A DNA stretch of 64,000 nucleotides from Candidatus Micrarchaeota archaeon. Its GTDB lineage: Archaea; Micrarchaeota; Micrarchaeia; Norongarragalinales; SBBD01. Shown piece by piece: positions 13,424-64,000 of the stretch. The notes under the pieces were generated by a model. That model saw only the letters and a list, made by a program, of their open reading frames with translations. It had not been told where the DNA came from and searched no databases. The position numbers and the translations under genes were made by a program. Location: positions 273,715-337,714 of the forward strand of contig JAHJQN010000004.1 of the NCBI GenBank assembly GCA_018819225.1, written 5' to 3'. Within the stretch, counting starts at the first letter, position 1, and each line of letters starts with the position of its first letter.

Positions 13424-13560
13424 GAATAAAATTTACCCGACGTGAGTATAAAAACGAAACGTATCAAGAACCTCATGCGGCGTGTTGGATTAGAGCCATT
13501 CAAGCAAACCTTTTCTTTTAAAAGAAAAGCCTTACCAAAAGAATATCGCAGTTCATAAGC

Positions 13561-13659
13561 GCCTCCGTAGCTCAGGGGTAGAGCGCCTGTCTTGTAGGGA
13601 TGGTTAGAAACGCGTTCCAAGAAAACAGGAGGTCGCGAGTTCAATTCTCGCCGGAGGCT
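13561..13659 (+). tRNA. tRNA-Thr(TGT) with 27-nt canonical (37/38) intron
   Basis: Hand fold: acceptor GCCTCCG/CGGAGGC, D arm GCTC-AGGGGTA-GAGC, anticodon stem CCTGT/ACAGG with loop CTTGTA|intron|A, T arm GCGAG-TTCAATT-CTCGC, discriminator T. Intron about 13597-13623. Confidence 0.8.
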
Positions 13660-13891
13660 TCCGGAAATAATTATTTTCTGTTTTTCTTTCTGGAACATGA
13701 CCTCGCCAGTTTGAGTGTGACCTTCGCCGGTTTGGCTCCAACCGTAATTGACTTGAATTCGACGCGTTGAATGAGAATTTCGTGTGCAACGCGTTTCCGC
13801 ACTGCGGGTACGCGACATCCTTTTCAATCGAACGCCATTTCCGCACAGGACTAAAAAACGGCTTTTGGGTTCGATGAGGGAAACCAGAAAC

Positions 13892-51064: not shown

Positions 51065-51179
51065 GGGCTCGTAGCTCAGCCGGCAGAGCGATCGGCTCTT
51101 AACCGATAGGTCGAGGGTTCGAAACCCGTTTTATTCCCGTGAAAAATAAAGCGCTTATGCGAAACTCCCTCCGAGCCCG
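51065..51179 (+). tRNA. tRNA-Lys(CTT) with ~42-nt intron in the T-loop region (non-canonical position ~59-61)
   Basis: GGGCTCG acceptor, anticodon stem ATCGG/CCGAT with loop CTCTTAA, T stem GAGGG + TTCGAAA, then 42 nt before CCCTC-CGAGCCC-G. CGAAAC is repeated at both junctions, so the exact splice sites are ambiguous. Confidence 0.6.
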
Positions 51180-51181
51180 CT

Positions 51182-53101: not shown

Positions 53102-53161
53102 GAGGATACAGACGAGTCCCAGAGAATAAAAGTGTTGTGGAAAAGAGTGAACAGAAGGGAT

Positions 53162-53488
53162 TCAGATGCGCAGCAGGCCCTTTTTAACTAATTGCTCCAC
53201 TTGCGGCCGCGTATACCGGTACGCAATATCCGCTTTCTCGTCCGATTCAACGACCCACGGGGTAATCAGCACGATGTCTCCGGAACGCATCCAGAGCTTC
53301 ATGCGAATGCGTCCAGGAATGCGGCACAAGCGTTCCTTGCCGTCTTCACAATTAACAAATAAACGAGAACCCCCCACCAATTCCCGCACGACTCCGAACA
53401 GTTCACCCTCGCGGGGCAGACGCAACCGGAAAGGCTGGTCGCCACGGTTTTGTTTCTTCTTGTGTCGCGGCTTTCGGTAAAATCCCAT
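53162..53488 (-). CDS. eif1a: translation initiation factor aIF-1A
   Basis: S1-like OB fold; GELFGVVRELVGGSRLFVNCEDGKERLCRIPGRIR is close to the archaeal/eukaryotic IF1A consensus. Confidence 0.9.
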   Translation of the reverse strand: MGFYRKPRHKKKQNRGDQPFRLRLPREGELFGVVRELVGGSRLFVNCEDGKERLCRIPGRIRMKLWMRSGDIVLITPWVVESDEKADIAYRYTRPQVEQLVKKGLLRI

Positions 53489-53492
53489 GGGA

Positions 53493-53897
53493 TCACACTA
53501 ATACGGGCGATCGCGCACCACACGCCTCGCAAATCAATATTTTCGCGCTTCGCCCATGCGACTCGATCGACGTATCCGGCTTATGGCATTCATGACAGAT
53601 CACGTGCGTCTGGGCGTACAAACCGATTTTTTCATTAATCAAGCGGTCACTGACCTTGGTTTGCAACAGCAAACGCCCGCCTTCCATGACCCCCGGAACG
53701 GCCAGTTCCCGAAACAAGAACTTCGCCAGGTCTGCGGGCTTGCGACGAAGCGTTTGGCAAATCGCGTCAAAATTACGGATTAACGTCTTATTGCCTTCAA
53801 TGAATGCGTCCGCGATAGGCACTTCAAAACGTTCGCCGGAAGACTTCTTCTCGGGAAGGGACGCGTAAACCTCTGTCAACATGTTTTCGTAGTTCAT
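53493..53897 (-). CDS. eif2b: translation initiation factor aIF-2 beta subunit
   Basis: MNYENMLTEVY...YVICHECHKPDT...CEACGA zinc ribbon. The true start is 53897; the upstream extension in the ORF track is spurious. Confidence 0.85.
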   Translation of the reverse strand: MNYENMLTEVYASLPEKKSSGERFEVPIADAFIEGNKTLIRNFDAICQTLRRKPADLAKFLFRELAVPGVMEGGRLLLQTKVSDRLINEKIGLYAQTHVICHECHKPDTSIESHGRSAKILICEACGARSPVLV

Positions 53898-54292
53898 GAA
53901 ATGGAAACCACTCGCTCTCCAGAAACGGAGAAGTAGGAAGTATACTACCGTTTCCCTCATTTTTAAGGCTTTCTTCCCGGCGCACGACTCACCAATCGCT
54001 TGGAAGTTAGACGCTTGATGGGGGAAGGCGCGTACGCTTTTTCGGGCTTTCGCAGCAACTGCATGAGCACGTAAGCGAACTGCAGCGATATTCCTGCAGC
54101 AACAAGTAATTTCGCCCAAAAGAATACCGTGCTTTCATCCGGATATTTCTGCAGGACGCCCGCAAGAAATAATAGAACGCCGCCCACGATCGCTGCGGCG
54201 CCCGTTCGACCCAACAGAAATTTGGTGACCATAACCGAATATTCAAATACCGGTGCCTAATAATGCTTGGGGGAACGCATGAAAAGAGGTGC

Positions 54293-54667
54293 ATGGGAAT
54301 GAAGAAGAAAACGCTTTCACCCGAACAACATCGCATCCTAATGGAAAAAGGCACCGAGCCCCCTTTTTCCGGTAGGCTGCTGAACCACAAGGAAAAAGGG
54401 GTTTACGAGTGCGCGAACTGCGGTAGTTCGTTGTTCTCCTCCGAAACCAAGTTCGATTCGGGGAGTGGATGGCCGAGTTTTCATGATGTCATCAATAATA
54501 AAAAAGTAGTACTAAAAACGGATGCGAGTCTTGGAATGAAGAGAGTGGAAGTATCGTGCAAGCAATGCGGAGGTCATTTGGGGCACGTGTTTGATGACGG
54601 CCCGCAACCCACGGGAAAACGCTATTGCATTAATTCGCTGGCGCTCGAGTTCAAGAAAAACCGTTGA
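54293..54667 (+). CDS. msrB: peptide-methionine (R)-S-oxide reductase MsrB
   Basis: CANCGSSLFSS...GWPSFHD...CKQCGGHLGHVFDDGP contains both CxxC pairs and the catalytic region. The start is probably Met at 54293 or 54299. Confidence 0.85.
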   Translation: MGMKKKTLSPEQHRILMEKGTEPPFSGRLLNHKEKGVYECANCGSSLFSSETKFDSGSGWPSFHDVINNKKVVLKTDASLGMKRVEVSCKQCGGHLGHVFDDGPQPTGKRYCINSLALEFKKNR

Positions 54668-54886
54668 CTAGCTTTTTCTTGTTGTCTTCAAGTATTGCGT
54701 CCGAAAAACGAAGGCCACGAGCATGATTCCGGAAGCCAGCCCTAATGGAAACGTCCCAGACGAATTTCCTCGCAAGGAGGAATCAATAGCCGAGACCCCG
54801 AAAACGACTCCCGCAATCAGATACGGATAAGGGGAATAGAGGAATCGGTTGAAGGCGTCTTTTTTCTGAACTCGTCTCTTTTTCAT
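54668..54886 (-). CDS. small membrane protein, hypothetical
   Basis: 72 aa with two hydrophobic helices; weak. Confidence 0.3.
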   Translation of the reverse strand: MKKRRVQKKDAFNRFLYSPYPYLIAGVVFGVSAIDSSLRGNSSGTFPLGLASGIMLVAFVFRTQYLKTTRKS

Positions 54887-54916
54887 AATAAAAGTTAGTT
54901 GACGGTTTATAAAAAG

Positions 54917-54932
54917 ATAGTGCAGGGGGAGT
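54917..54932. repeat. att-like copy 0 of tRNA-Leu 3' end
   Basis: ATAGTGCAGGGGGAGT on the plus strand. Its reverse complement CTCCCCCTGCACTAT matches the tRNA-Leu acceptor 3' strand + discriminator. Confidence 0.5.
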
Positions 54933-55017
54933 AAGCGCAGCCGTGGGCTTGAAGCAGACCATCGGAATCCTTGTCCGAAGAAACATTTAAATATTTATCA
55001 GTTGATATATTTATCGG

Positions 55018-55311
55018 TTGATTAATATGGAAAATATCTTCGTTTCGTTCAAGCCCCGGAATTTGGACCGCTATCCCCGGCTGGATACCGTACTCATGGT
55101 GGAAAAGGAACTCTTCAAGCACCGTAGCGACAAGACGATTACGGAAATCTGGAGAGGACTTCCAAGGAAAGTCCTGTGGACGACGTACACCACCATTCTT
55201 GATTACTTGGAATATTCGGGCAAGATCCACATCGAGAAGGACAAAACGATTACGTGGCTCTGGAACCCCCAGCTATTGGAGCGAATAAAACGAGAGGGCA
55301 TCGAAGCATGA
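55018..55311 (+). CDS. small winged-helix-like protein (putative antitoxin/regulator), cassette 1
   Basis: 97 aa; paralogous to 57186-57461 (DTVLMVEKELF...ILDYLEYSGKI vs KTVIMVEEVLA...ILEYLEASNKI). ATGA overlap with the downstream gene. Confidence 0.45.
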   Translation: MINMENIFVSFKPRNLDRYPRLDTVLMVEKELFKHRSDKTITEIWRGLPRKVLWTTYTTILDYLEYSGKIHIEKDKTITWLWNPQLLERIKREGIEA

Positions 55312-55658
55312 ACGATTCCCGCACTATCCGCGTGCGCTTTGTAGACAGGAAGCTATACGAGACATACCTCAAGTTGAAGGCGGGAAAAACGGAAGAAAAG
55401 AGACTGGCGGAATACTTGGAACGAGCCATCCAAGACCTCAAGAAGGACCCGTTTTGCGGCATCCAAATCCCCCGTAGACTATGGCCGAAGGATTACGTGC
55501 GAAAATACGGCATCAACAACTTGCGGAAGTACGATTTGCCGAACGGCTGGCGATTAGTTTACACGCTGGTCGGCAACCAAATCGAGATTGTTTCCATCCT
55601 CTTGGAATGGTTCAAGCATAAAGAGTACGAAAAACGCTTTCATTACAAGGTAAGATAA
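55308..55658 (+). CDS. RelE/ParE/YoeB-superfamily toxin-like protein, cassette 1
   Basis: 117 aa. KKDPFCGIQIP...WRLVYTLVGNQIEIVSILLEWFKHKEYEKRFHY fits the RelE/YoeB pattern (conserved G, WR..Y, C-terminal H.Y). Paralogous to 56833-57189. Confidence 0.45.
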   Translation: MNDSRTIRVRFVDRKLYETYLKLKAGKTEEKRLAEYLERAIQDLKKDPFCGIQIPRRLWPKDYVRKYGINNLRKYDLPNGWRLVYTLVGNQIEIVSILLEWFKHKEYEKRFHYKVR

Positions 55659-55670
55659 CCATTTTCACGT

Positions 55671-55688
55671 CTGAGTGCAGGGGGAGGG
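55671..55688. repeat. att-like copy 1 of tRNA-Leu 3' end
   Basis: CTGAGTGCAGGGGGAGGG; 18 of 19 nt match the tRNA-Leu 3' end including part of the T stem. Confidence 0.55.
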
Positions 55689-55782
55689 CAGCGAGCCTAT
55701 GGCTCTGTGCAGACCGGCTTGTCGTGTATTCGTAGTCATATTTGTAGAAACCTTTATATATTTGTAGTCACCTAAGGATCGT

Positions 55783-56724
55783 ATGCATATCGAGATTCGC
55801 ACGATCGGCAGGAAAAAGAAATTCTACCTTGCTCATTCGTACCGCCGGCAAGGGAAAGTAGTTAAACTGCGGGTTTATCTGGGGTCTGGCCTTTCCTCAG
55901 ACGAATTGGCTGCAAGGAAGGTCCGTGCTGAAGAGCGTCTCAGTTTTCGGATTTCGGCAATAGGCTCAATCCGAGATCCGTTTCAAACGGCTCTCTCCGC
56001 CAGCGAACTGCGGGAACTTGAAACACTCGAAACCAGGGGGGAAATCGCAGTAAGGTACCTGTCGGAAGAGGACTGGCGCAAATTCACCGAAGCGTTCGCA
56101 TTCGACACCAACGCCATCGAAGGCTCTTCGGTTCTTGCAAACGAAGTCGGCGACATTCTGGAAAGGGACAAGTGGCCGGACAAACCGAAAGAAGACATTT
56201 CCGAGACTTACGGGGTTGCCAAGGCAATCGAATTCATACGAAAGACCAAAGACCCCGTTTCCATTCCCCTCGTACTCGAACTCCACCGGCTGGTCTTCCG
56301 GAATTCGAAACCGTTTGCTGGAAGGCTGCGCGGTCGAGGTGTCGAAGTGGTAATCGGCGACGGGAGAGGCAACGTCATCCACCGCGGCGCGCCTTCCACG
56401 CAGGTGCGTAGCCTACTGGGCAAGCTAGTCAAATGGTACGGTGAGAACAAGAAAAAATATCCTCCACTGGTACTGGCCGCCGTGGTGCATAACCAGTTCG
56501 AGAACATCCACCCGTTCCAGGACGGCAACGGCCGAGTCGGAAGGCTGCTATTGAACAACATCCTCCTCAAGCACGGCCTTCCCCCGCTAAACATCGAGCT
56601 CCGCAACCGGCAGGAATACTACGCCGCCCTGCAGGAATACGAGCGCAGCCAGAACATCCGGCCGACAATCGAGCTGATGCTTAAGGAATACCGCGCCCTC
56701 AAGCGGCTGCTCAAGAAAAGGTGA
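55783..56724 (+). CDS. fic: Fic-domain protein (AMPylase/Doc-Fic family) with internal inhibitory helix motif
   Basis: Fic signature HPFQDGNGRVGRLL (HxFx[DE]GNGRxxR) and upstream TNAIEG ([ST]xxxE[GN] inhibitory motif); 313 aa. Confidence 0.8.
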   Translation: MHIEIRTIGRKKKFYLAHSYRRQGKVVKLRVYLGSGLSSDELAARKVRAEERLSFRISAIGSIRDPFQTALSASELRELETLETRGEIAVRYLSEEDWRKFTEAFAFDTNAIEGSSVLANEVGDILERDKWPDKPKEDISETYGVAKAIEFIRKTKDPVSIPLVLELHRLVFRNSKPFAGRLRGRGVEVVIGDGRGNVIHRGAPSTQVRSLLGKLVKWYGENKKKYPPLVLAAVVHNQFENIHPFQDGNGRVGRLLLNNILLKHGLPPLNIELRNRQEYYAALQEYERSQNIRPTIELMLKEYRALKRLLKKR

Positions 56725-56773
56725 CTACAAACCCGCAAGCGTAGTCACCCAATGCGCAAACCCCTGGAACTCA

Positions 56774-56799
56774 CAGCCCAAGGCTGAGTGCAGGGGAAG
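56774..56799. repeat. att-like copy 2 of tRNA-Leu 3' end
   Basis: CAGCCCAAGGCTGAGTGCAGGGGAAG vs tRNA-flank CAGCCCAGGGCTGAGTGCAGGGAGAG (24 of 26). Confidence 0.6.
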
Positions 56800-56832
56800 T
56801 AGCTCAAGCCAACGTCTTGCTGCAGTCTCTGA

Positions 56833-57189
56833 TCACTTGCGTTTGTAACCGAACCGCTTATCGTATGTCCCGTGAGGACTGATTTCAAGGACGAAGGCAA
56901 CAATTTCAACTTCTGTTCCCCCTTCGGTCAGCGAATACAGCATTCTCCAGAATTGAGGGAGTTCTACGCGGAACAGGTTCTTGATCCCGTACTTCCGCTT
57001 GTACTCGTCAGGAATCTTATCTTTAGAGATGGGCTCTCCATAATGAATGTTGGCCTTGATCAGCTCGACTTTTTTATTGATTGCGTTCAGGATGCTCCTG
57101 TCGCGTTTTGACTTGGGTGCTCGCTCATTCAAATACCGGTACACTTTCTCAGCTTCCGGCGAGAGAACGACTCGGACGGTCTTGTTCAT
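56833..57189 (-). CDS. RelE/ParE/YoeB-superfamily toxin-like protein, cassette 3
   Basis: 118 aa. YGEPISKDKIP...WRMLYSLTEGGTEVEIVAFVLEISPHGTYDKRFGY; paralogue of 55308-55658. Confidence 0.45.
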   Translation of the reverse strand: MNKTVRVVLSPEAEKVYRYLNERAPKSKRDRSILNAINKKVELIKANIHYGEPISKDKIPDEYKRKYGIKNLFRVELPQFWRMLYSLTEGGTEVEIVAFVLEISPHGTYDKRFGYKRK

Positions 57190-57461
57190 AGCTCAAGGCC
57201 TCTGGCAATGGCTTTCCTGAGAGCAGGATTGTCATTGGCGATCCATGAAATACCTTTCAGGGAAACAGCGATCTTGTTGCTGGCCTCCAAATATTCTAAA
57301 ATAACCATCAAGGTATAGTGGTTGACCTGCTTCGGAAGCATTCTTTTCAGTTCGGCAATTGTAATGACGCTCTTCTTCATGTTTGCCAAAACCTCTTCCA
57401 CCATGATGACGGTTTTCAAGTTCGGCGCATGCGCAAATTCCACGTTATACATAGTCATCAC
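57186..57461 (-). CDS. small winged-helix-like protein (putative antitoxin/regulator), cassette 3
   Basis: 91 aa; ATGA overlap with the downstream toxin-like gene; paralogue of 55018-55311. Confidence 0.45.
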   Translation of the reverse strand: MMTMYNVEFAHAPNLKTVIMVEEVLANMKKSVITIAELKRMLPKQVNHYTLMVILEYLEASNKIAVSLKGISWIANDNPALRKAIARGLEL

Positions 57462-57621
57462 TTTATTTTACAAATTCATAACCTATTTGTATTTATTAGT
57501 ATATTTAAGCCTTTCGGTACCTCGTTTTAACTAATCAAAGGAAATAGGTAGAAGCGTACAGCCTATAGGGGAAGTCACCGTAGACGATTCTACAGCTGGG
57601 CACTTCCAGCCCAGGGCTGAG

Positions 57622-57766
57622 TGCAGGGAGAGGGATTTGAACCCTCGAAGCTTCTACAGCACAGGATTTCCTAAAACCCTTTCTTTTCTCGTCGAGGTCT
57701 TTTCTTTACAAAAAGAAAAGAGGTCGCTTAAGTCCCGCCCCTTTGACCGAACTTGGGTACCCCTGC
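57622..57766 (-). tRNA. tRNA-Leu(TAA) with ~59-nt canonical intron
   Basis: Minus-strand fold: GCAGGGG acceptor, D arm CCC-AAGTTCGGTCAAA-GGG, anticodon stem CGGGA/TCCTG with loop CTTAAG|intron|A, long variable arm GCT-GTAGA-AGC, T arm GAGGG-TTCAAAT-CCCTC, 3' TCCCTGC-A. The exons resemble archaeal tRNA-Leu. The intron forms a long perfect hairpin. Confidence 0.7.
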
Positions 57767-57848
57767 GTAAACCTTTTTTTAATGAAAGCTTAAAAGCGTC
57801 ATGGATACGCCTAGATGAATGAACTCATAGGCGTTAATGCGCCGCGGA

Positions 57849-58013
57849 TTACTTGCCTCCGCCCTTGGCTTCCTTTCGGCGCGCGCGCTTGGGTCGCAAA
57901 TGAGGATAATTGCACTTGCGGCACTTCACCGTCCCTTTCGGATTGCGCGTCTTGCATTTCAAGCAAACGACGACCGATAGAAACGCTTTGTCAGCTAAAG
58001 GAAACTTGCCCAT
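57849..58013 (-). CDS. rpl40e: 50S ribosomal protein L40e (54 aa; absent from the ORF track)
   Basis: Translation MGKFPLADKAFLSVVVCLKCKTRNPKGTVKCRKCNYPHLRPKRARRKEAKGGGK has the eL40 C4 zinc-ribbon pattern (C-x2-C...ARNP...C-RKCG...LRPK). Confidence 0.7.
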   Translation of the reverse strand: MGKFPLADKAFLSVVVCLKCKTRNPKGTVKCRKCNYPHLRPKRARRKEAKGGGK

Positions 58014-58134
58014 ACTGGTTCACGAAAACTTCTGTAAAAGAAGAGAATACTGGTATGGCTACCAACGTTTTTAAAGGCTATTTTGTCCTAAGAAAGAGGT
58101 AGCTGCTTCTTTACCCCGATGGTTGATTTGACAT

Positions 58135-58295
58135 GCCTCCGTAGCTCAGTAGTAGAGACGGAACCTTTTCTTTTTTAATAGAAAAGCTTCACCAAAAGAA
58201 GAAGCGAATAAAAGCGCCTCCGTAGCTCAGTAGTAGAGCGCGAACCTTTTCTTTAATAAAGAAAAGCTTCACCAAAAGAAAGCGCGTATTCCCAT
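58135..58295 (+). repeat. two tandem ~80-nt units, each = tRNA-Thr 5' half (positions 1-25) + promoter-like spacer, preceding the intact tRNA-Thr(GGT)
   Basis: GCCTCCGTAGCTCAGTAGTAGAG(A/C)(C)G at 58135 and 58216. Each is followed by GAACCTTTTCTTT(TT)AATA(A)AGAAAAGCTTCACCAAAAGAA, which is homologous to the region upstream of tRNA-Thr(TGT) at 13507-13545. Confidence 0.6.
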
Positions 58296-58367
58296 GCCTC
58301 CGTAGCTCAGTAGTAGAGCGCTTCCTTGGTAAGGAAGAGGTCGCGGGTGCGATTCCCGCCGGAGGCT
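58296..58367 (+). tRNA. tRNA-Thr(GGT), intronless
   Basis: GCCTCCG-TA-GCTC-AGTAGTA-GAGC-G-CTTCC-TTGGTAA-GGAAG-AGGTC-GCGGG-TGCGATT-CCCGC-CGGAGGC-T. Confidence 0.85.
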
Positions 58368-58380
58368 TGAATTCTTTTTT

Positions 58381-60468
58381 TTAATTTCGTATCTTCTTGT
58401 GAATGACGCGTTTACGTTTGTCGTGGAAGAACCAAGCACTCGCTACAGCCACTGAAAAGAGTAGAATAAGCCAGACGCTGTTAGAGAAAAGACCTCGTTC
58501 CTCTTGACGACGTCGATATTCTTGTTCAGCCGCAAGATACCCTGACTCTCCCCGCAAAACGGTTTGTTTCGGAATCCCCACCATCAATGGACTGCCACCA
58601 GGAGGCCAGCGAGTCGGAACCGGTGAAGGAGTGACCGTGGATTCGGGCTCGCCCATTCCAGAAGGAACGTACTCCAGATCATTCGTTATCAACAGCTTGT
58701 CTAATTGCATTCCATCCTCACGGTTGCGAACCGTCAACGTATGGAAACCAGCGGAAAGATCAAACGCAAGAGGATCCAAAGGAGGAGAACGGCTGTTCGC
58801 GACATCCCACCGCCACACGTTGCCGCCCGCCGTATCCCAAATATATTCTGCACCGCCATCCATGCGAATGAACACGCTGTCTGCTGCCGTGTGAGGAGAC
58901 AATTCACGACCCCAAACGCGATATTCTCCTGAAACGGGAACCTCGAAAGAATAGGTCAAGAGGTCGGCGTCGCCGCCTGCATTGAACGGAACGAGCACGA
59001 ATTCGCCATTGGAAGCGTCTTCATCCACATCAATGACCCACGCTCCGAGCAAGGACGAAAAGTGTTCGGCCTCCACCCAATAATAGGAGTATCCCGGAAC
59101 AGCCGTAGGAGAACATGAACCCAAACAACATACGCCGGACCCGCAATACCCTTCATCCTCCAAGAAACAATCATCGTAGAAACCGCAGTTGGCGCGACAC
59201 GACCCACCCAATGCTTCGCAAGGAACGGGTGTCGGCGTGCTCGTGCACGATCCGATACAGCAGATTCCAGTCGAACAATAACCCTCGGCATCCCAAACGC
59301 ATTCATTGAATTGACTACAATCCTCTAAACATTGTCCGCCCAAATCCTCCTCGCAATAAATATCCGAGCCGCCGCCTTCAAAAGTCAGCGTGGCCTGGAT
59401 GAGATTGAAGGAATCGAACGATCCTTGTCCGGAAAACACGAGCCAAACCGTTTCTCCATTCGCGCTGATCCACTTGCTCGGAAAATTGTAAAAGAATGAA
59501 GGCTCGTAATCCCAAGAATCAAAAATGGCTACGGTATACCAGGGCCCCCAAGGATTCGGTGCCTCAAAAATAGACATGCCGCTACCTGAAACCCCGCCGT
59601 TGTCTCCCACGTGGTGATCGCCGACCAATAAGTACCTCCCCGAAGGAGAATGATACGTGACAACCGGAGGTGCCCAACCCACATTCTCTTTAATGAAAAC
59701 GGGTTGTCGGAGAGTCAAGTCATTCGTCCATTGGTTTAAACCAGTCGAGAATTCATACTGATCCCGATCCCAAATGAAATCTTTAGGAACGCGCATTAAA
59801 TCCACTTCCCCGGGAACCTGAACCTTGAGACCGGTAGCATCCTTCAACCGCGTCGCGTACATATACACGAATCCATCCGGCGACGCCGCATCCTCCCCGT
59901 ACTGCGAGATGCTGGGTAAAATCAATTCGTTTTCTTCAGTGAACATCCAATTGTTTTGAAGTTCCCAAGTTGCCCCATGATCGTACGAACGCGCCAGCCT
60001 CGCATTATCGTAATTCATATTATTGGAACCCGGACTGACCCACATGTATAATACGCCATCAATGGAAACGATCCCGTAAGACTTGCCGGTAAACGTAGCG
60101 GGATTTTCTGCAGCACACGAAGCAGGAGGCGCATGTTCTGGATTTTCGCAACTGCCGTCCCCCAACGCATGGCACCCCCATAAATTGACGGGCACGAAAT
60201 CGACGGCATCCCCTTCAATGCGAGTTAAACCCAAACTAGCGCGACAAAGGGTATTGGATCCTTCAAAACCGCCTCCGTCACCCCAACTCGTGTATTGATG
60301 ACCGTCATCCGCCCAAGTCATCGGAAAATTATCGCTTCCTGAAGCGGCATTGAAATAGGTCGCAGGATTAAACGAGATGTCGGTAATGACGGTGCTTGAC
60401 GGATACGCCACGTTCAGCGAAAGAAAACATATGAAAAAAACAAGAAAGGTACGGAATGCCCCTCGCAT
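58381..60468 (-). CDS. large secreted/surface protein: N-terminal glycoside-hydrolase-like/beta-propeller-like region, two 8-Cys modules, shared ~150 aa domain, C-terminal TM anchor
   Basis: Signal peptide. Modules CEEDLGGQCLEDCSQFNECVWDAEGYCSTGICCIGSC and PCEALGGSCRANCGFYDDCFLEDEGYCGSGVCCLGSC. The domain YYWVEAEHFSS...LLITNDLEYVPSGMGEP is paralogous to 10580-13423. C-terminal TM. Confidence 0.7.
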   Translation of the reverse strand: MRGAFRTFLVFFICFLSLNVAYPSSTVITDISFNPATYFNAASGSDNFPMTWADDGHQYTSWGDGGGFEGSNTLCRASLGLTRIEGDAVDFVPVNLWGCHALGDGSCENPEHAPPASCAAENPATFTGKSYGIVSIDGVLYMWVSPGSNNMNYDNARLARSYDHGATWELQNNWMFTEENELILPSISQYGEDAASPDGFVYMYATRLKDATGLKVQVPGEVDLMRVPKDFIWDRDQYEFSTGLNQWTNDLTLRQPVFIKENVGWAPPVVTYHSPSGRYLLVGDHHVGDNGGVSGSGMSIFEAPNPWGPWYTVAIFDSWDYEPSFFYNFPSKWISANGETVWLVFSGQGSFDSFNLIQATLTFEGGGSDIYCEEDLGGQCLEDCSQFNECVWDAEGYCSTGICCIGSCTSTPTPVPCEALGGSCRANCGFYDDCFLEDEGYCGSGVCCLGSCSPTAVPGYSYYWVEAEHFSSLLGAWVIDVDEDASNGEFVLVPFNAGGDADLLTYSFEVPVSGEYRVWGRELSPHTAADSVFIRMDGGAEYIWDTAGGNVWRWDVANSRSPPLDPLAFDLSAGFHTLTVRNREDGMQLDKLLITNDLEYVPSGMGEPESTVTPSPVPTRWPPGGSPLMVGIPKQTVLRGESGYLAAEQEYRRRQEERGLFSNSVWLILLFSVAVASAWFFHDKRKRVIHKKIRN

Positions 60469-60510
60469 GGAACCACCTATTTCTTACTAGTCTTCCTCGG
60501 TTTTAATAAG

Positions 60511-60556
60511 TGCGGGCTTTGCACCTTTTGGGCGAGCCACGCCGGAGGCTTACGGA
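60511..60556. repeat. direct repeat A containing a tRNA-Thr 3'-end-like core (CGCCGGAGGCTTACGGAAA)
   Basis: GTGCGGGCTTTGCACCTTTTGGGCGAGCCACGCCGGAGGCTTACGG; 42 of 46 nt identical to repeat B. The core matches the tRNA-Thr(TGT) 3' end + flank (CGCCGGAGGCTTCCGGAAA). Confidence 0.55.
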
Positions 60557-60580
60557 AAAGCATGACAAAAAGGCGATCGA

Positions 60581-60823
60581 TTAGGAATAAATATTCTGAC
60601 GGTGCCCCGCGTCATGCAAGCGAACGGCGTTCTTGCTTAAAGAGTAAATGATCCGGTAGTCGCCGACCCGCAAGCTAAAGAAATTCGACAGGCGCCCGTG
60701 AAGCCGTTTGCCCGCGCGAGGAAATTGGCCAAGAAGCGTAACTTCACGGAGCAGCCGCACCCGAATATTGCGAGGCAACTTGCGGAAAGACTTTTGGAAG
60801 TGATTGGAATAAAGCACTTCCAT
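60581..60823 (-). CDS. relE: type II toxin RelE/ParE family
   Basis: 80 aa. LGQFPRAGKRLHGRLSNFFSLRVGDYRIIYSL...HRQNIY is a classic RelE/ParE signature (G..L.G.....LRvGdYRiiY...HR...Y). Confidence 0.8.
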   Translation of the reverse strand: MEVLYSNHFQKSFRKLPRNIRVRLLREVTLLGQFPRAGKRLHGRLSNFFSLRVGDYRIIYSLSKNAVRLHDAGHRQNIYS

Positions 60824-60828
60824 GCGAA

Positions 60829-61023
60829 TTACACCTTCAGATTAACAATGGAATGAAATCGGCCATCCGAAAAATCCTTCTCAGATGAACGAATTCCTTT
60901 TAGTAGTTTCTTGTCTGCGAGGACTTCCAGCGTTTCCTGCAAAGATTCGAAAGCATCCCTGGCTTCTTCAAAGCTCTTCTTCGCTGCGTTCAATTCCTTC
61001 CGAATAGATGAACCGACGTACAT
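60829..61023 (-). CDS. putative cognate antitoxin (RelB/Phd-like)
   Basis: 64 aa, located 5 nt upstream of relE. The C-terminus ETLEVLADKKLLKGIRSSEKDFSDGRFHS resembles antitoxin C-termini. Confidence 0.5.
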   Translation of the reverse strand: MYVGSSIRKELNAAKKSFEEARDAFESLQETLEVLADKKLLKGIRSSEKDFSDGRFHSIVNLKV

Positions 61024-61101
61024 TCTAAGTCCCTTACAACAGCAGTAAAACGAGCTTTATAATACTTGCTAGACACGAGCGCCATTGGATTTGTCTCGAG
61101 G

Positions 61102-61147
61102 TACGGGCTTTGCACCTTTTGGCCGAGTCCCTCCGGAGGCTTCCGGA
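61102..61147. repeat. direct repeat B containing a tRNA-Thr 3'-end-like core (CTCCGGAGGCTTCCGGA)
   Basis: GTACGGGCTTTGCACCTTTTGGCCGAGTCCCTCCGGAGGCTTCCGG. Confidence 0.55.
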
Positions 61148-61223
61148 TTTTTAGATTTCAACGGCAGCATACCCTTCCGAAAGGAATATATATGGACTTA
61201 GTTCATATTGATATGGTGATAAC

Positions 61224-61454
61224 ATGGTGCATGCATTAGTCAATATTTCGGAAGAAGCAAACCGCGTGTTGAACGTGATTAAAGCGAAAAAGAATTTGCG
61301 AACCAAATCAGAGGCGATTGAGGAGATGGCGCGAGAGTACGAGCAAGAACTCTTGGAACCCGAACTTCGACCGGAATACGTGGAACGCATTCGGAAAATC
61401 GGCAAGCAAAAAACGATTACAGTGAAGGACTTCGAAAAAGAGTTTCTGAGCTGA
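61224..61454 (+). CDS. putative antitoxin
   Basis: 76 aa, 7 nt upstream of a RelE-like ORF. Confidence 0.4.
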   Translation: MVHALVNISEEANRVLNVIKAKKNLRTKSEAIEEMAREYEQELLEPELRPEYVERIRKIGKQKTITVKDFEKEFLS

Positions 61455-61461
61455 TGGCGGC

Positions 61462-61728
61462 ATGTATGGTCTCGAAGTGTCTCCGGAAGCGTATGCCCGG
61501 TTCAAAAAGATGCGAAAAAAGAACCGCTGGCTACTCGAAGTCATTGGCAAGAAGGTCCGGCATATACGCGAGCGCCCCCATCATTTCAAACCGCTTCATT
61601 TCCCCCTTCATAACAAACGACGGGTCCATATTGCGGGATCGTTTGTACTCGTCTATGAAATCAGGGAAAAAGACAAAACCGTTGTCATCATAGACTTCGA
61701 CCACCACGATAACGTTTACATGAAATGA
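61462..61728 (+). CDS. type II toxin RelE/ParE family
   Basis: 88 aa. RPHHFKPLHFPLHNKRRVHIAGSFVLVYEIREKDKTVVIIDFDHHDNVY fits the RelE pattern. Confidence 0.65.
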   Translation: MYGLEVSPEAYARFKKMRKKNRWLLEVIGKKVRHIRERPHHFKPLHFPLHNKRRVHIAGSFVLVYEIREKDKTVVIIDFDHHDNVYMK

Positions 61729-61775
61729 CGGAATCGGTTTAAGCGAACGAATGGATGGGGGTATATCGTTTGAAT

Positions 61776-61794
61776 GAGTCCGGCCGGAGGCTCT
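61776..61794. repeat. direct repeat C (GAGTCCGGCCGGAGGCTCT), partial tRNA-Thr 3'-end-like core
   Basis: Shares GAGTCC..CCGGAGGCT with repeat B. Confidence 0.4.
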
Positions 61795-61848
61795 GAACGT
61801 TCCGCATTTTTTTTATTCTTGGTTCAATGGGGATTGCGAAAACCGCGG

Positions 61849-62913
61849 TCATACCCACTTTTGTTTCCGGAAATAAAACAGCATGACGAATGATATCGCG
61901 ATCATGAACATCCAGAGAATCGGATAGGCTAACGGCCAATCCAACTCGGGCATGAAACGAAAATTCATGCCGTACACTCCGACAATGAACGTCAGCGGAA
62001 TAAAGAGAGTGGCAATAACGGTTAAGGTCTTCATGACCTCGTTCATCCGATTGCTGATGCTGGACATGTAGAGGTCCATCATCCCGGATAAAAGATCGCG
62101 GTACGAATCGATGGAATCAATGGCGTGGATGATGTGGTCGTAAACGTCCCGCAAGAACACGGCGGTCTGGTTCTTGATCAGCTTCGATTCGTTCCGCTGG
62201 AGTCCGCTGATGACTTCCCTCAATGGCCACACGCCCTTCCGCAAGAACACCAAATCCGTTTTCATGGCGTGAATGGAATGCAGCGTGGACTGGGACGGGT
62301 TCGCCACCAGTTCTCCCTCCAATTGCTCTATGCGTTCCCCCAATTCCTCCAGAATGACAAAATAATGGTCGACGACGGAATCGATCAACGTATAAAAAAG
62401 GTAATCGGCGCCCATCCTCCGAATCCGTCCTTTTCCCTTGCGAAGACGTTCGCGAAGCGGATCAAAAACGTCTCCGGGTTTTTCCTGAAAAGAAATCACG
62501 TACTGCTTTCCAAGAATCACGCTGACTTGTTCGGACTCCACCCTCTTTTTTTCCCGATCAAAATAGAGCATTTTCATGACTAAAAAAAGGTGGTCCCCGA
62601 AATCCTCGAGCTTGGGGCGTTGATCAGTATGGACGATATCCTCGATGAGCATCGGATGAAAACCCAAACGATCTCCCAGTTTCTGGATCCCTTGCGAATC
62701 GTGCACGCCGTCCACGTTAATCCACGTAATCGAGGGCGCGTCTTTGATCGGAAAACACGCATCAAACGAGTCCGGTTTAAGTTCTTTCACGTCATCCGAA
62801 GTAAAATTAAAAAGCGTGATTTCCACGCGATCCGTTTTCTTTTCGCCCACGAATACTGCCGTACCCGGACTCAACCCCGCTTTCTTTGAAGCCCTTTTGA
62901 AATACCGCGACAT
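61849..62913 (-). CDS. corA: CorA magnesium/cobalt transporter
   Basis: C-terminal YGMNF (GMN motif) followed by two TM helices; cytoplasmic N-domain; 354 aa. Confidence 0.85.
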   Translation of the reverse strand: MSRYFKRASKKAGLSPGTAVFVGEKKTDRVEITLFNFTSDDVKELKPDSFDACFPIKDAPSITWINVDGVHDSQGIQKLGDRLGFHPMLIEDIVHTDQRPKLEDFGDHLFLVMKMLYFDREKKRVESEQVSVILGKQYVISFQEKPGDVFDPLRERLRKGKGRIRRMGADYLFYTLIDSVVDHYFVILEELGERIEQLEGELVANPSQSTLHSIHAMKTDLVFLRKGVWPLREVISGLQRNESKLIKNQTAVFLRDVYDHIIHAIDSIDSYRDLLSGMMDLYMSSISNRMNEVMKTLTVIATLFIPLTFIVGVYGMNFRFMPELDWPLAYPILWMFMIAISFVMLFYFRKQKWV

Positions 62914-63353
62914 CTCCCACTACCCCGTTAAAGAAGATGGCTAAACCCATTAAAAACCCCTCTTGACTGAAGCTAATCATTCCCGAACGGGAATAAGAAC
63001 TTGTTCAACATTAAGTTAAATAATTGGATCGAACTCAATGGCGTCATGGCCAAGAAAAACCTGAAGGAAAGGATTTCCCATCCAAAATTTCCGACGCTCG
63101 AACAACGAAAGCGATTCGCCTCGGGGGACATTCACGCTATGGGAATCAGAAAAATACGGTACGGGGTTCTTCCACCGAGATTAAGGGAAAGGGTGAATGA
63201 GCACCTCATCGAAACCCGACTCACGTGAATAGCTTCGGATGCTCCAGCCGACAAGAGACAAGAAGAGTAAGAGGCGCACGAAACCCTCTAGAGCGGAATC
63301 AACCCAAGTCTTAAAAGCGCTCAGGAATAGAAGGTTTTGAAAGAGGGGTCGTC

Positions 63354-64000
63354 ATGGAATTCAAGGGAAAAAAAGCATTGATTACCGGAAGCGCCGTGCG
63401 ATTCGGAAGACATGTGGCGCTCGAGCTCGCGAAACAAGGTGCGGACGTCGCCATCCACTACCGAGACAGTGAAAAGGAAGCGGAAAAAGTCGTTAATGGA
63501 ATCAAGGAAATGGGGAGGAAAAGCCAGGCGTTTCCCGCGGAGTTGACAGACGCAAAGCAAGCCGTGAAAATGGTGCGGGATGCCTCCGAGTTTTTGCACG
63601 GACTCGACATTCTTGTGAACAACGCCTCCTCGGTATACGTACATAAACACGTGACGGAAGTGCAACCGGATGAATGGAAGCGCGTGCTCGACACGGATTT
63701 GAACGGGGCGTTTTACTGCACGCATGCCGTGCTCCCCATCATGCACATGCAAAAATACGGGCGCATCATCAACATGGGAGCCGTCGGTTGCGGAATCATT
63801 CAAGCCAAACCCCTCACCACAGCATATTCCGCAGCGAAAACCGGTTTATTGATTCTAACAAAAAGCGTGGCTGCATCAGAAGTGCAAAACGGGATTACCT
63901 GCAACATGGTATCTCCCGGCATCATGGAAATCAGCGAAGAAAAACGAAACGTTCCATTGAAACGATACGCGAAATACGATGAAGTGTTGCGAGCGGTCTT
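63354..64000 (+). CDS. short-chain dehydrogenase/reductase (SDR), 3' partial (runs off window)
   Basis: Own translation from ATG 63354: MEFKGKKALITGSAVRFGRHVALELAKQGADV...LVNNAS...YSAAK (TGxxxG-like motif, NNAS, catalytic YxxxK). Not in the ORF track because it has no stop in the window. Confidence 0.65.
   Translation, partial: MEFKGKKALITGSAVRFGRHVALELAKQGADVAIHYRDSEKEAEKVVNGIKEMGRKSQAFPAELTDAKQAVKMVRDASEFLHGLDILVNNASSVYVHKHVTEVQPDEWKRVLDTDLNGAFYCTHAVLPIMHMQKYGRIINMGAVGCGIIQAKPLTTAYSAAKTGLLILTKSVAASEVQNGITCNMVSPGIMEISEEKRNVPLKRYAKYDEVLRAV

What the first reader, a model, noticed from the sequence alone, without database searches (positions are those of the whole stretch)
60511..61800. Second cassette array downstream of tRNA-Thr(GGT): RelE/antitoxin modules bracketed by ~46-nt direct repeats whose core copies a tRNA-Thr 3' end
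Repeats A (60511-60556) and B (61102-61147) are about 90% identical over 46 nt. Both end in CGCCGGAGGCTT(A/C)CGGA, which is the 3' acceptor strand + discriminator + flank of a tRNA-Thr. It matches the flank of the intron-containing tRNA-Thr(TGT) at 13652-13668 (CGCCGGAGGCTTCCGGAAA) better than the adjacent tRNA-Thr(GGT). A third partial copy lies at 61776-61794. Repeats A and B bracket a canonical RelE + antitoxin pair. Repeats B and C bracket a second antitoxin-like + RelE pair on the other strand. The large surface-protein gene 58381-60468 lies between the genuine tRNA and repeat A. This points to integration or recombination involving both tRNA-Thr loci, 45 kb apart, that moved TA cassettes and possibly the surface-protein paralogue.
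Basis: seen in the sequence. Interest (0 to 1): 0.7.

Follow-up and report, generated by a model that had tools for sequence, protein, structure and literature searches.

The report
Toxin–antitoxin cassette arrays at tRNA genes
Downstream of a threonine tRNA gene in a Micrarchaeota (DPANN archaeon) genome, three small gene cassettes, two of them toxin–antitoxin pairs, each end in a copy of the tRNA's 3' end; this is the scar pattern of repeated site-specific insertion, unusual here because the cassettes are tiny and carry no integrase.

Summary
Repeats A (60510-60556) and B (61101-61147) are 87% identical over 47 nt. A third copy, C (61769-92), lies in register with the 3' end of tRNA-Thr(GGT). 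All are on the tRNA's strand and share an invariant CCGGAGGCT. They bracket a DUF4185 surface-protein gene and two ParE/antitoxin pairs.

Three copies of its 3' end bracket two RelE/YoeB-like pairs and a Fic gene. A homologous cassette in another Micrarchaeota genome (L147) is bounded by homologous tRNA-Leu-like units.

Most likely these are att scars from serial Campbell-type integration at tRNA 3' ends. The cassettes are 0.6-2.2 kb, have almost no spare DNA and no integrase, so any recombinase would act in trans. That resembles cis-mobilizable elements or tycheposon remnants, and works like integron cassettes, though no mobility was shown here.

The A/B trailer (TCCGGA) does match the tRNA-Thr(TGT) trailer. 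However, the surface-protein "paralogue" shares only a 43%-identical C-terminal part, so a recent transfer between the two tRNA-Thr loci is unsupported. No donor, empty site, recombinase or further copy was found. I rate it a new variant of a known kind, of moderate interest.

The parts
58296..58367 (+). tRNA-Thr(GGT), intact; head (attL side) of the Thr array
   Evidence: ARAGORN; Rfam 71.1 bits
58381..60468 (-). Cassette Thr-1: 695-aa DUF4185 / Cys-rich surface protein with a C-terminal TM anchor. Only 13 nt and 41 nt of non-coding DNA separate it from the tRNA and from unit A.
60510..60556 (+). Unit A: 22-nt non-tRNA arm, then a copy of the tRNA-Thr T-loop/acceptor 3' strand, then a TACGGA trailer
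60581..61023 (-). Cassette Thr-2: 64-aa antitoxin candidate (60829-61023) plus 80-aa ParE/RelE toxin (60581-60823)
   Evidence: Pfam PF05016 30.7 bits. The same 64+80 aa pair is conserved at 61% identity in L141.
61101..61147 (+). Unit B: same arm, then core, then TCCGGA trailer; contains the palindrome TCCGGAGGCTTCCGGA
61224..61728 (+). Cassette Thr-3: 76-aa DUF2683/RHH antitoxin (61224-61454) plus 88-aa ParE/YafQ-like toxin (61462-61728)
61769..61792 (+). Unit C: distal copy of the core (19/24 to B; exact GCCGGAGGCT), followed by the chromosomal flank and the CorA gene
58135..58295 (+). Two extra tandem copies (period 80-81 nt) of tRNA-Thr(GGT) positions 1 to about 26. Each is followed by a promoter-like hairpin block that is also found upstream of tRNA-Thr(TGT).
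57621..57766 (-). Class II tRNA with a 59-nt intron; head of the second array. ARAGORN reads Ser-UGA. I read Leu-UAA from a canonical intron position and the discriminator A.
   Evidence: ARAGORN -i; Rfam 38 bits
56774..56803 (-). Leu-array unit R1: copy of the tRNA 3' end plus 14 nt of trailer (21/22)
56833..57461 (-). Cassette Leu-1: 91-aa plus 118-aa pair; the 118-aa protein belongs to a large DPANN family
55783..56724 (+). Cassette Leu-2: 313-aa Fic-domain protein
55671..55690 (-). Leu-array unit R2 (CCCTCCCCCTGCACTCAG, 17/18 to the tRNA end)
55027..55658 (+). Cassette Leu-3: 94-aa plus 116-aa pair. The 116-aa protein is 37% identical to the 118-aa protein and has a weak Txe/YoeB hit.
54919..54935 (-). 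Leu-array unit R3 (distal; CTCCCCCTGCAC)
13561..13668 (+). tRNA-Thr(TGT) with intron, plus the trailer TCCGGAAA that A and B resemble. Reference only; not part of an array.

Best explanation
The region is a tandem array of three small inserted cassettes at the 3' end of tRNA-Thr(GGT). A, B and C are the junction (att) scars left by successive Campbell-type site-specific recombination.

Proposed mechanism (inferred):
- Each incoming circular cassette carries a site of about 45 nt: a short element-specific arm, then a copy of the tRNA-Thr T-loop/acceptor 3' strand.
- It recombines inside the shared CCGGAGGCT segment of the tRNA.
- This regenerates the tRNA and pushes earlier cassettes outward. 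The inferred order is oldest RHH/ParE (next to C), then ParE/antitoxin, then the surface-protein gene.

The same process built a mirror-image three-cassette array at the neighbouring class II tRNA.

The cassettes are complete operons with almost no spare DNA and no recombinase gene. I therefore infer that they are minimal units moved in trans by a recombinase encoded elsewhere, or by a helper element. That makes them functionally like cis-mobilizable elements or integron cassettes. The toxin-antitoxin cargo would favour their retention.

Shown: the repeats, their register with the tRNA, the gene content, the second array, and the homologous units in another genome. Inferred: the recombination mechanism, the order of insertion, and mobilization in trans.
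For: 1. A, B and C are direct repeats in the tRNA's orientation and in register with its last 24 nt. CCGGAGGCT is invariant. The intact tRNA sits at one end.

2. The adjacent class II tRNA has the same layout. Copies of its 3' end at 56774-56803, 55671-55690 and 54919-54935 bracket three cassettes, and CCCTGCAC is invariant at the equivalent sublocation: acceptor 3' strand plus discriminator.

3. The units resemble each other more than either tRNA. They share GAGnCC where the tRNAs have GATTCC or AATTCT, and A and B share a 22-nt non-tRNA arm. This is expected for element-borne attP-type sites.

4. In Micrarchaeota genome GCA_016212465.1 (L147), the homologous 88+118-aa cassette is bounded by units with the same tRNA-Leu-like core. 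These units are 17/23 identical to window unit R3 across the right-hand 23 nt (arm end plus core). L147 units 1 and 2 also share a 79-nt arm, and a HicAB pair lies next door.

5. The unit-to-unit spacing of that cassette is 782, 797 and 833 bp in three genomes.

6. All six cassettes are complete genes or operons with at most about 190 nt of non-coding DNA. The intergenic gaps are too short to hold an integrase fragment.

7. The repeats keep one orientation while the cassette genes face both ways, and the distance from arm to TATA-like box differs between A and B. They are therefore not expression signals (read directly).

8. They have no significant fold and match no Rfam family.

9. Serial integration that leaves partial tRNAs, and integrase-less att-flanked elements, are established phenomena (10.1101/2020.12.28.424599; PMC5704250; PMC9897764; PMC7253208).
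Against: - No recombinase was found in the 21 kb around the arrays or among 20 mid-size ORFs elsewhere in the window. The rest of the 709-kb contig could not be read.
- No empty site, circular form or presence/absence polymorphism could be shown. The organism has no close relative in the databases; the next-best CorA hit is 60% identical.
- No further copy of the A/B arm turned up in reference genomes or viral contigs. A relaxed core pattern found nothing in metagenomes, and the region found nothing in plasmid or phage records.
- The closest ParE1 homologue (L141) and five of eight contexts of the 118-aa cassette have no convincing flanking repeats.
- A and B are only 87% identical, so any events are old.
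- G+C content shows no clear foreign signal.
Confidence: 0.5

Rival explanations
1. Same integration mechanism, but the cassettes are decayed remnants of ordinary, much larger integrase-bearing integrated elements (proviruses or plasmids). Deletions removed everything except the att ends and the addictive toxin-antitoxin genes, which resist loss.
For: Tandem accretion followed by decay is the standard history of tRNA-linked islands (PMC5704250; 10.1101/2020.12.28.424599). Toxin-antitoxin modules are what one expects to survive. The units have diverged (87%), which implies age. No helper recombinase was found.
Against: Six of six cassettes, plus those in L147, are reduced to exactly one operon with at most about 190 nt to spare. 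There are no pseudogene or integrase fragments. The same cassette has the same 0.78-0.83 kb unit size in three genomes. Independent random deletions should leave variable debris.
Confidence: 0.25
2. Ectopic (homologous or integrase-independent) recombination between the two tRNA-Thr loci 45 kb apart shuffled the TA cassettes and the surface-protein gene. More generally, circles entered by a Campbell-type single crossover through short homology.
For: The A/B core plus trailer match tRNA-Thr(TGT) 18/19 and 15/15. The promoter-like block upstream of tRNA-Thr(TGT) also occurs twice at the GGT locus. Flanking repeats of the 118-aa cassette vary in length between genomes (about 10-16, 14, 30 and 100 nt), as homology-driven insertion would allow.
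Against: The surface proteins are only 43% identical over a C-terminal part and lie on opposite sides of their tRNAs. There is no array or degenerate core at the TGT locus. On the T-loop side the units are closer to GGT, and their shared GAGnCC is found in neither tRNA. The two tRNAs are in direct orientation, so crossing over between them would delete 45 kb of housekeeping genes.
Confidence: 0.12
3. The repeats are long target-site duplications made by a staggered-cut integrase of the casposase or CRISPR-adaptation kind, which inserts DNA at a tRNA-proximal target and duplicates it each time.
For: The repeat-cassette-repeat layout is polar from a fixed 'leader' (the tRNA). From general knowledge, casposons target tRNA 3' ends.
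Against: There is no Cas1 or PolB. No terminal inverted repeats were reported at the cassette ends. Repeat length is not constant (24-47 nt here, 14-100 nt elsewhere). A and B contain 22 nt that are not in the tRNA target.
Confidence: 0.05
4. The repeats are functional elements and not scars. They could be a regulatory or processing motif, such as a tRNA-like 3' end or a terminator/promoter for TA operons, or halves of a split tRNA gene.
For: B and the tRNA-Thr(TGT) end form a 5-6-bp hairpin (TCCGGA-GGCT-TCCGGA) followed by T or A runs. tRNA 5' fragments with promoters lie upstream.
Against: Folding energies are not significant (z -0.6, -1.4, +0.75), and the hairpin is weakened in A and absent in C. 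There is no Rfam match. The units have no T-loop and no acceptor 5' strand, so they are neither a tRNA half nor a minihelix. Their orientation is fixed while the flanking genes point both ways. The motif is not found elsewhere in the window.
Confidence: 0.05

Closest known systems
Tandem accretion at tRNA genes: cis-mobilizable elements (CIMEs) beside ICE/IME, and tycheposon remnants in Prochlorococcus islands
   Same: Elements insert at the 3' end of a tRNA gene. Each insertion leaves a partial tRNA copy, and newer arrivals push older ones outward. Integrase-less units that keep attL and attR can persist and be moved by a neighbour's integrase (PMC5704250; 10.1101/2020.12.28.424599).
   Different: Here the units are 0.6-2.2 kb single operons, mostly toxin-antitoxin. 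There is no integrase-bearing partner in the array or within about 9-10 kb either side. The host is a DPANN archaeon. Arrays sit on two adjacent, divergent tRNAs. No mobility has been shown.
Archaeal integrated elements with tRNA-derived att repeats (SSV/pT26-2-type 'suicidal' integrases; PYG1 in Pyrococcus yayanosii)
   Same: In archaea the att site is a roughly 40-50 bp copy of the tRNA 3' part that borders the element as direct repeats (PMC7253208; PMC9897764).
   Different: Those elements are 10-40 kb and carry the integrase, split into Int(N) and Int(C) at their ends. No such fragments fit in the short non-coding stretches here.
Integron cassette arrays (including the archaeal integrons of Ghaly et al. 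2022)
   Same: Arrays of minimal, promoter-proximal-independent cassettes, each bounded by a recombination site and often encoding toxin-antitoxin pairs. The recombinase is not part of the cassette (PMC9668308).
   Different: There is no IntI. The units are not attC hairpins (no R''/R' GTTRRRY, no significant fold). Cassette genes face both ways. The docking site is a tRNA 3' end, not attI.
Xer-dependent modules (IMEX elements; pdif modules of Acinetobacter plasmids)
   Same: Small modules, often TA or single accessory genes, with no recombinase of their own. They are bounded by short conserved sites and moved by a host recombinase (my own knowledge; not checked in a paper here).
   Different: The sites here are tRNA-derived direct repeats. 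Only a 6-bp/4-nt palindrome is present, and only in B and in the tRNA-Thr(TGT) end, not the 11-6-11 Xer layout. No XerA site comparison was possible.

Membership tests
tRNA-targeted integrated elements / att-flanked remnants (CIME-like) | Direct repeats that copy the 3' part of the adjacent tRNA gene, in the tRNA's orientation, with an intact tRNA at one end | tested here: met
   for Thr; for the class II tRNA
tRNA-targeted integrated elements / att-flanked remnants (CIME-like) | A tyrosine or serine recombinase in the element or in a tandem partner | tested here: not met
   No integrase family among the called genes of window 51849-64000 plus 8.9 kb beyond, or among 20 other ORFs. The rest of the genome was not readable.
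tRNA-targeted integrated elements / att-flanked remnants (CIME-like) | Presence/absence polymorphism, an empty site in relatives, or an excised circle | not testable with these tools
   No close relative exists (next-best CorA hit 60%). There was no access to reads. Two assemblies are identical.
tRNA-targeted integrated elements / att-flanked remnants (CIME-like) | The same att unit attached to the same or other cargo in other genomes | tested here: met
   For the Leu-type unit only: L147 units share the core and arm with the window units. For the Thr-type unit nothing was found.
Integron | An IntI integrase with attI next to the array | tested here: not met
Integron | attC sites: imperfect palindromes with R''/R' (GTTRRRY) boxes that fold as hairpins | tested here: not met
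   No GTT box in A or B (sequence). DNA folds are not better than shuffles (z -0.6, -1.4, +0.75).
Casposon | Cas1 casposase, terminal inverted repeats, and a fixed 14-15 bp target duplication | tested here: not met
   No Cas1. No inverted repeat reported at the cassette ends. Repeats are 24-47 nt.
Split / trans-spliced tRNA genes | A 3' half carrying the anticodon-stem 3' strand, the T arm and the acceptor strand, with a leader complementary to the 5' half's trailer | tested here: not met
   A, B and C lack a T-loop and T stem (alignment A1). Complementarity to the 5' fragments' trailer is only 7 nt (CCAAAAG/CTTTTGG), read directly.
Type II toxin-antitoxin, ParE/RelE superfamily | A small toxin matching the family profile above its threshold, with an adjacent small upstream partner gene | tested here: met
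   PF05016 at 30.7 and 31.9 bits (cut-off 23), with partners of 64 aa and 76 aa (DUF2683/RHH). The pair is conserved in L141. Toxicity and neutralization were not tested.
Xer/dif-type modules | Two inverted ~11-bp recombinase-binding arms around a 6-8 bp spacer | tested here: inconclusive
   Only the 6-bp arm/4-nt spacer palindrome TCCGGA-GGCT-TCCGGA is present in B and at the tRNA-Thr(TGT) end. It is weakened in A and absent in C. No archaeal dif reference was available for comparison.

The most novel reading that the evidence does not exclude
Micrarchaeota, and perhaps DPANN archaea more widely, may have an integron-like gene-capture system. In it, minimal recombinase-less cassettes, mostly toxin-antitoxin or other conflict genes, carry a roughly 45-nt site that mimics a tRNA 3' end. 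They would be stacked, shuffled and exchanged between genomes at tRNA genes by a recombinase supplied in trans. The tandem tRNA 5' fragments with their own promoters would be the footprint of a matching 5'-side insertion route.
Probability: 0.2. Interest if true: 0.7.

Novelty: new variant of a known kind. Interest (0 to 1): 0.45.

Why it matters
DPANN archaea have very small genomes and depend on hosts, and how they gain and keep accessory genes is poorly known. If these arrays are active docking sites for minimal cassettes, they would be a simple, recombinase-in-trans route for exchanging defence and addiction genes. It would be analogous to integrons but built on tRNA genes, and testable directly with long-read metagenomes.

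If they are only old scars, the finding is still useful in three ways:
- It marks a 7-kb flexible islet (54.9-61.8 kb) around two tRNAs.
- It explains partial tRNA copies that can confuse tRNA annotation.
- It explains why assemblies break here.

Tried and rejected
**Searches for further copies or donors**
- Further copies of the A/B arm: an exact 18-mer scan of 185,579 reference genomes gave 30 single hits, about the number expected by chance. The one archaeal hit (L008) lacks the core.
- A relaxed pattern covering A, B and C in JGI metagenomes gave 108 single hits. None had the arm or a multi-copy layout. L071 matches 23/24, but I judged it to be chance.
- Viral contigs: no hit for the arm or for the Leu-type unit, and 57 chance hits for the core plus trailer.
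- blastn of the region against plasmid and phage records: no match.

**Comparative approaches**
- Synteny comparison through CorA failed. There is no close relative, and CorA itself looks bacterial-like.
- Two exact-protein look-ups meant to annotate the rest of the window failed, presumably because the called start codons differ.
- The closest ParE1 homologue (L141) has no flanking repeats.

**Hypotheses tested on the sequence**
- A degenerate core downstream of tRNA-Thr(TGT): not significant (111 of 500 shuffles score as well).
- Split-tRNA, tRNA-like processing signal, attC hairpin and promoter/terminator readings were each rejected on sequence and folding.
- G+C profile: no clear foreign signal.
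- Rfam found no tRNA in L143 or L147, so the target of the L143 repeats stays unknown.
Full report
**Source and setting**

The window is the reverse strand of a 709-kb metagenomic contig (ENA ERZ27247117 k141_304414). NCBI names its proteins 'Candidatus Micrarchaeota archaeon'. Three observations fit an archaeon:
- an L40e-like gene at 57849-58013, though its Pfam match is below the cut-off;
- intron-containing tRNAs;
- a tRNA-splicing endonuclease gene.

An independent Logan assembly is identical over 14.6 kb across the finding. It breaks inside the D-arm of tRNA-Thr(GGT), where a tandem repeat begins.

**Checking the observation**

- tRNA-Thr(GGT) is at 58296-58367.
- Repeats A (60510-60556) and B (61101-61147) are 47 nt long and 87% identical.
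- Their first 18 nt, GGGCTTTGCACCTTTTGG, are exact in both and unique to them in the window even with three mismatches allowed.
- A third copy, C (61769-61792), is in register with A, B and the last 24 nt of the tRNA (alignment A1).
- CCGGAGGCT is invariant in all five aligned sequences. In the window it occurs only in the two tRNA-Thr genes and in A, B and C, always on the + strand.
TGT gives 18/19 and 15/15; GGT gives 12/12 and 14/15.
- On the T-loop side the units are closer to GGT. They also share GAGnCC, which neither tRNA has.
- The genes are as described:
  - a DUF4185 surface protein;
  - a 64-aa ORF plus an 80-aa ParE/RelE toxin on the minus strand;
  - a DUF2683/RHH protein plus an 88-aa ParE/YafQ-like toxin on the plus strand.

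About 0.5 kb to the left, on the minus strand, lies a class II tRNA with a 59-nt intron (57621-57766; ARAGORN with introns; Rfam 38 bits). I read it as Leu-UAA because its discriminator is A. ARAGORN's intron placement gives Ser-UGA.

Copies of its 3' end follow it at three places:
- 56774-56803 (21/22, including 14 nt of trailer);
- 55671-55690 (17/18);
- 54919-54935.

These copies bracket three cassettes:
- a 91+118-aa pair;
- a Fic gene;
- a 94+116-aa pair, whose 116-aa member is 37% identical to the 118-aa protein and weakly YoeB-like.

Two divergent tRNAs therefore each head a three-cassette array. Five of the six cassettes carry toxin-type genes. The invariant segment sits at the same sublocation in both arrays: the acceptor 3' strand plus the discriminator.

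**Evidence from other genomes**

The organism has no close relative, and the next-best CorA hit is 60% identical. Empty-site comparison was therefore impossible.

The 118-aa protein belongs to a family of more than 1,000 proteins across Micrarchaeota, Diapherotrites and Nanoarchaeota. I read eight of its genomic contexts.

- **L147 (GCA_016212465.1).** The homologous 88+118-aa cassette lies between units that share a 79-nt arm. The downstream unit contains CCCTCCCTGCAC, the same tRNA-Leu-like core. A further copy lies 864 nt on, after a Yip1-like gene, and a HicAB pair lies next door. Across the right-hand 23 nt (arm end plus core), the L147 units are 17/23 identical to window unit R3. They are more alike than either is to the real tRNA there. 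Related att-type units thus travel with related cassettes in different genomes.
- **L143.** Three cassettes, including the homologous pair, are separated by four copies of TCACCGGCCAGGAC. I could not identify its origin.
- **L207/L208/L209.** These show only a weak 10-16-nt flanking repeat.
- **L145, L148, L149 and L210.** These show none.
- **L145 again.** Its tRNA-Thr(TGT) has an exact 36-nt copy of T-loop-to-trailer 114 nt downstream. That is another att-like scar at a tRNA-Thr.

The unit-to-unit spacing of the cassette is 782, 797 and 833 bp in the three genomes that have flanking repeats.

**Most likely mechanism**

The layout is an intact tRNA followed by cargo blocks. Each block ends in a same-orientation partial copy of the tRNA 3' end, and identity is confined to a short core. 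This is the signature of successive Campbell-type integrations at a tRNA gene, and it is well documented:
- partial tRNAs separating tandem elements and remnants in Prochlorococcus islands (10.1101/2020.12.28.424599);
- accretion of ICE/IME with integrase-less CIMEs (PMC5704250);
- 44-bp tRNA-derived repeats around archaeal islands (PMC9897764);
- tRNA 3' ends as the att sites of archaeal SSV-type integrases (PMC7253208).

Read this way, each unit is a hybrid. It consists of the right arm of one cassette, then the core, then the left end of the next:
- A and B share the same right arm.
- The trailers after A and B (TACGGA, TCCGGA) resemble each other and the tRNA-Thr(TGT) trailer.
- C is followed by chromosomal DNA and the CorA gene.

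The TGT-like trailer is most simply explained if the cassettes' site was modelled on a TGT-type tRNA-Thr, and they entered GGT through the shared 12-nt CGCCGGAGGCTT.

**What is unusual**

- Every cassette is a single complete gene or operon with at most about 190 nt of non-coding DNA (13+41, 24+77, 76+40 nt in the Thr array).
- None contains a recombinase gene, and the gaps are too short to hold a fragment of one.
- No integrase family appears in the 21 kb around the arrays or among 20 other ORFs of the window.

Independent decay of six larger elements to exactly one operon each seems less likely than insertion of minimal units. I therefore prefer cassettes mobilized in trans (confidence about 0.5) over decayed remnants (about 0.25). 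The data cannot settle this, because I could not read the rest of the genome or the reads.

**Rejected readings**

- *Expression signals.* The units keep one orientation while the flanking genes face both ways. The arm abuts the TATA-like box of the surface-protein gene at A but lies about 45 nt from the nearest one at B.
- *Structured RNAs or attC-type hairpins.* Fold z-scores are -0.6, -1.4 and +0.75, there is no Rfam hit and no GTTRRRY box.
- *tRNA halves.* The units have no T arm.
- *Casposon-like duplications.* There is no Cas1, no terminal inverted repeats, and repeat length varies.
- *Recent exchange between the two tRNA-Thr loci.* The two surface proteins share only a C-terminal ~260 aa at 43% identity and lie on opposite sides of their tRNAs. 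Nothing array-like follows tRNA-Thr(TGT).

**Limits**

All DNA searches for more Thr-type units or a donor element were negative. The closest ParE1 homologue sits without repeats. G+C content is uninformative. Mobility is therefore inferred from architecture and from one cross-genome comparison. It was not observed.

**Verdict**

This is a known kind of structure in an unusual form: miniature, recombinase-less, toxin-rich cassettes stacked at two tRNAs of a DPANN archaeon. Interest is moderate at 0.45. It would be higher if the integron-like reading were shown to hold.

Noticed in passing
window 58135-58295: There are two extra tandem copies (period 80-81 nt) of tRNA-Thr(GGT) positions 1 to about 26. 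Each is followed by a ~55-nt block (AACCTTTTCTTTAATAAAGAAAAGCTTCACCAAAAGAA...) that also precedes tRNA-Thr(TGT) at 13505-13545. The leftmost fragment is preceded by unrelated DNA. That fits 5'-side integration of a promoter-bearing site better than a simple tandem duplication. 5'-end integration is known for one archaeal element (PMC7253208). The Logan contig breaks exactly here.
   Followed up: partly
window 13511-13528, 58165-58186, 58247-58265, 57700-57719: A palindromic hairpin motif, CTTTTCTTT-N(1-5)-AAAGAAAAG, occurs only upstream of the two tRNA-Thr genes and inside the intron of the class II tRNA. It could be a promoter, a leader-processing hairpin or a small mobile hairpin. This is unexplained.
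   Followed up: partly
window 51065-51180: tRNA-Lys(CTT) appears to carry a ~40-nt non-canonical intron inside the 3' strand of the T stem. Rfam matches only positions 8-63, and the acceptor 3' strand CGAGCCC follows the insert. tRNA-Gly(GCC) at c39096-39216 has a 50-nt intron. A tRNA-splicing endonuclease gene lies at 2701-3864.
   Followed up: partly
L145 3395-3430 and 3509-3544 (Micrarchaeia, 1.3-Mb contig): There is an exact 36-nt duplicate of tRNA-Thr(TGT) from the T-loop to 11 nt of trailer, 114 nt downstream of the gene, with only ~78 nt between the copies. It is an att-like scar with almost no cargo.
   Followed up: partly
L143 3551, 4264, 5588, 6385 (GCA_016207165.1): Four direct copies of TCACCGGCCAGGAC, each followed by a TATA-like box, separate three small cassettes, including the 87+118-aa pair. 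No tRNA was detected nearby, so its origin (att site or regulator site) is unknown.
   Followed up: partly
window 56833-57189 (118-aa protein) and its family: This protein family has no Pfam or NCBIfam match, yet has more than 1,000 members at 64-81% identity across Micrarchaeota, Diapherotrites and Nanoarchaeota. It is always preceded by an 86-92-aa partner. Many members sit on ~1-kb contigs, which suggests assembly breaks at the flanking repeats. It is probably a RelE/YoeB-like toxin pair.
   Followed up: partly
window 61849-62913 (CorA): The nearest CorA homologues are only ~60% identical, and the named ones are mostly bacterial (Thermodesulfobacteriota, Syntrophales) or from other archaeal phyla. 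The gene next to the array may itself have been acquired horizontally.
   Followed up: no
L001 5046-6647 (about 2.3-3.9 kb beyond the window's right end): JAB/MPN and ubiquitin-conjugating (UQ_con) genes lie close together, with small ORFs between them. This may be a ubiquitin-like modification cassette in a DPANN genome.
   Followed up: no
L148 5173-5378: A tandem repeat of ~130 nt (two copies, 87-97% identical) lies just upstream of the homologous 90+118-aa cassette in another Micrarchaeota genome.
   Followed up: no
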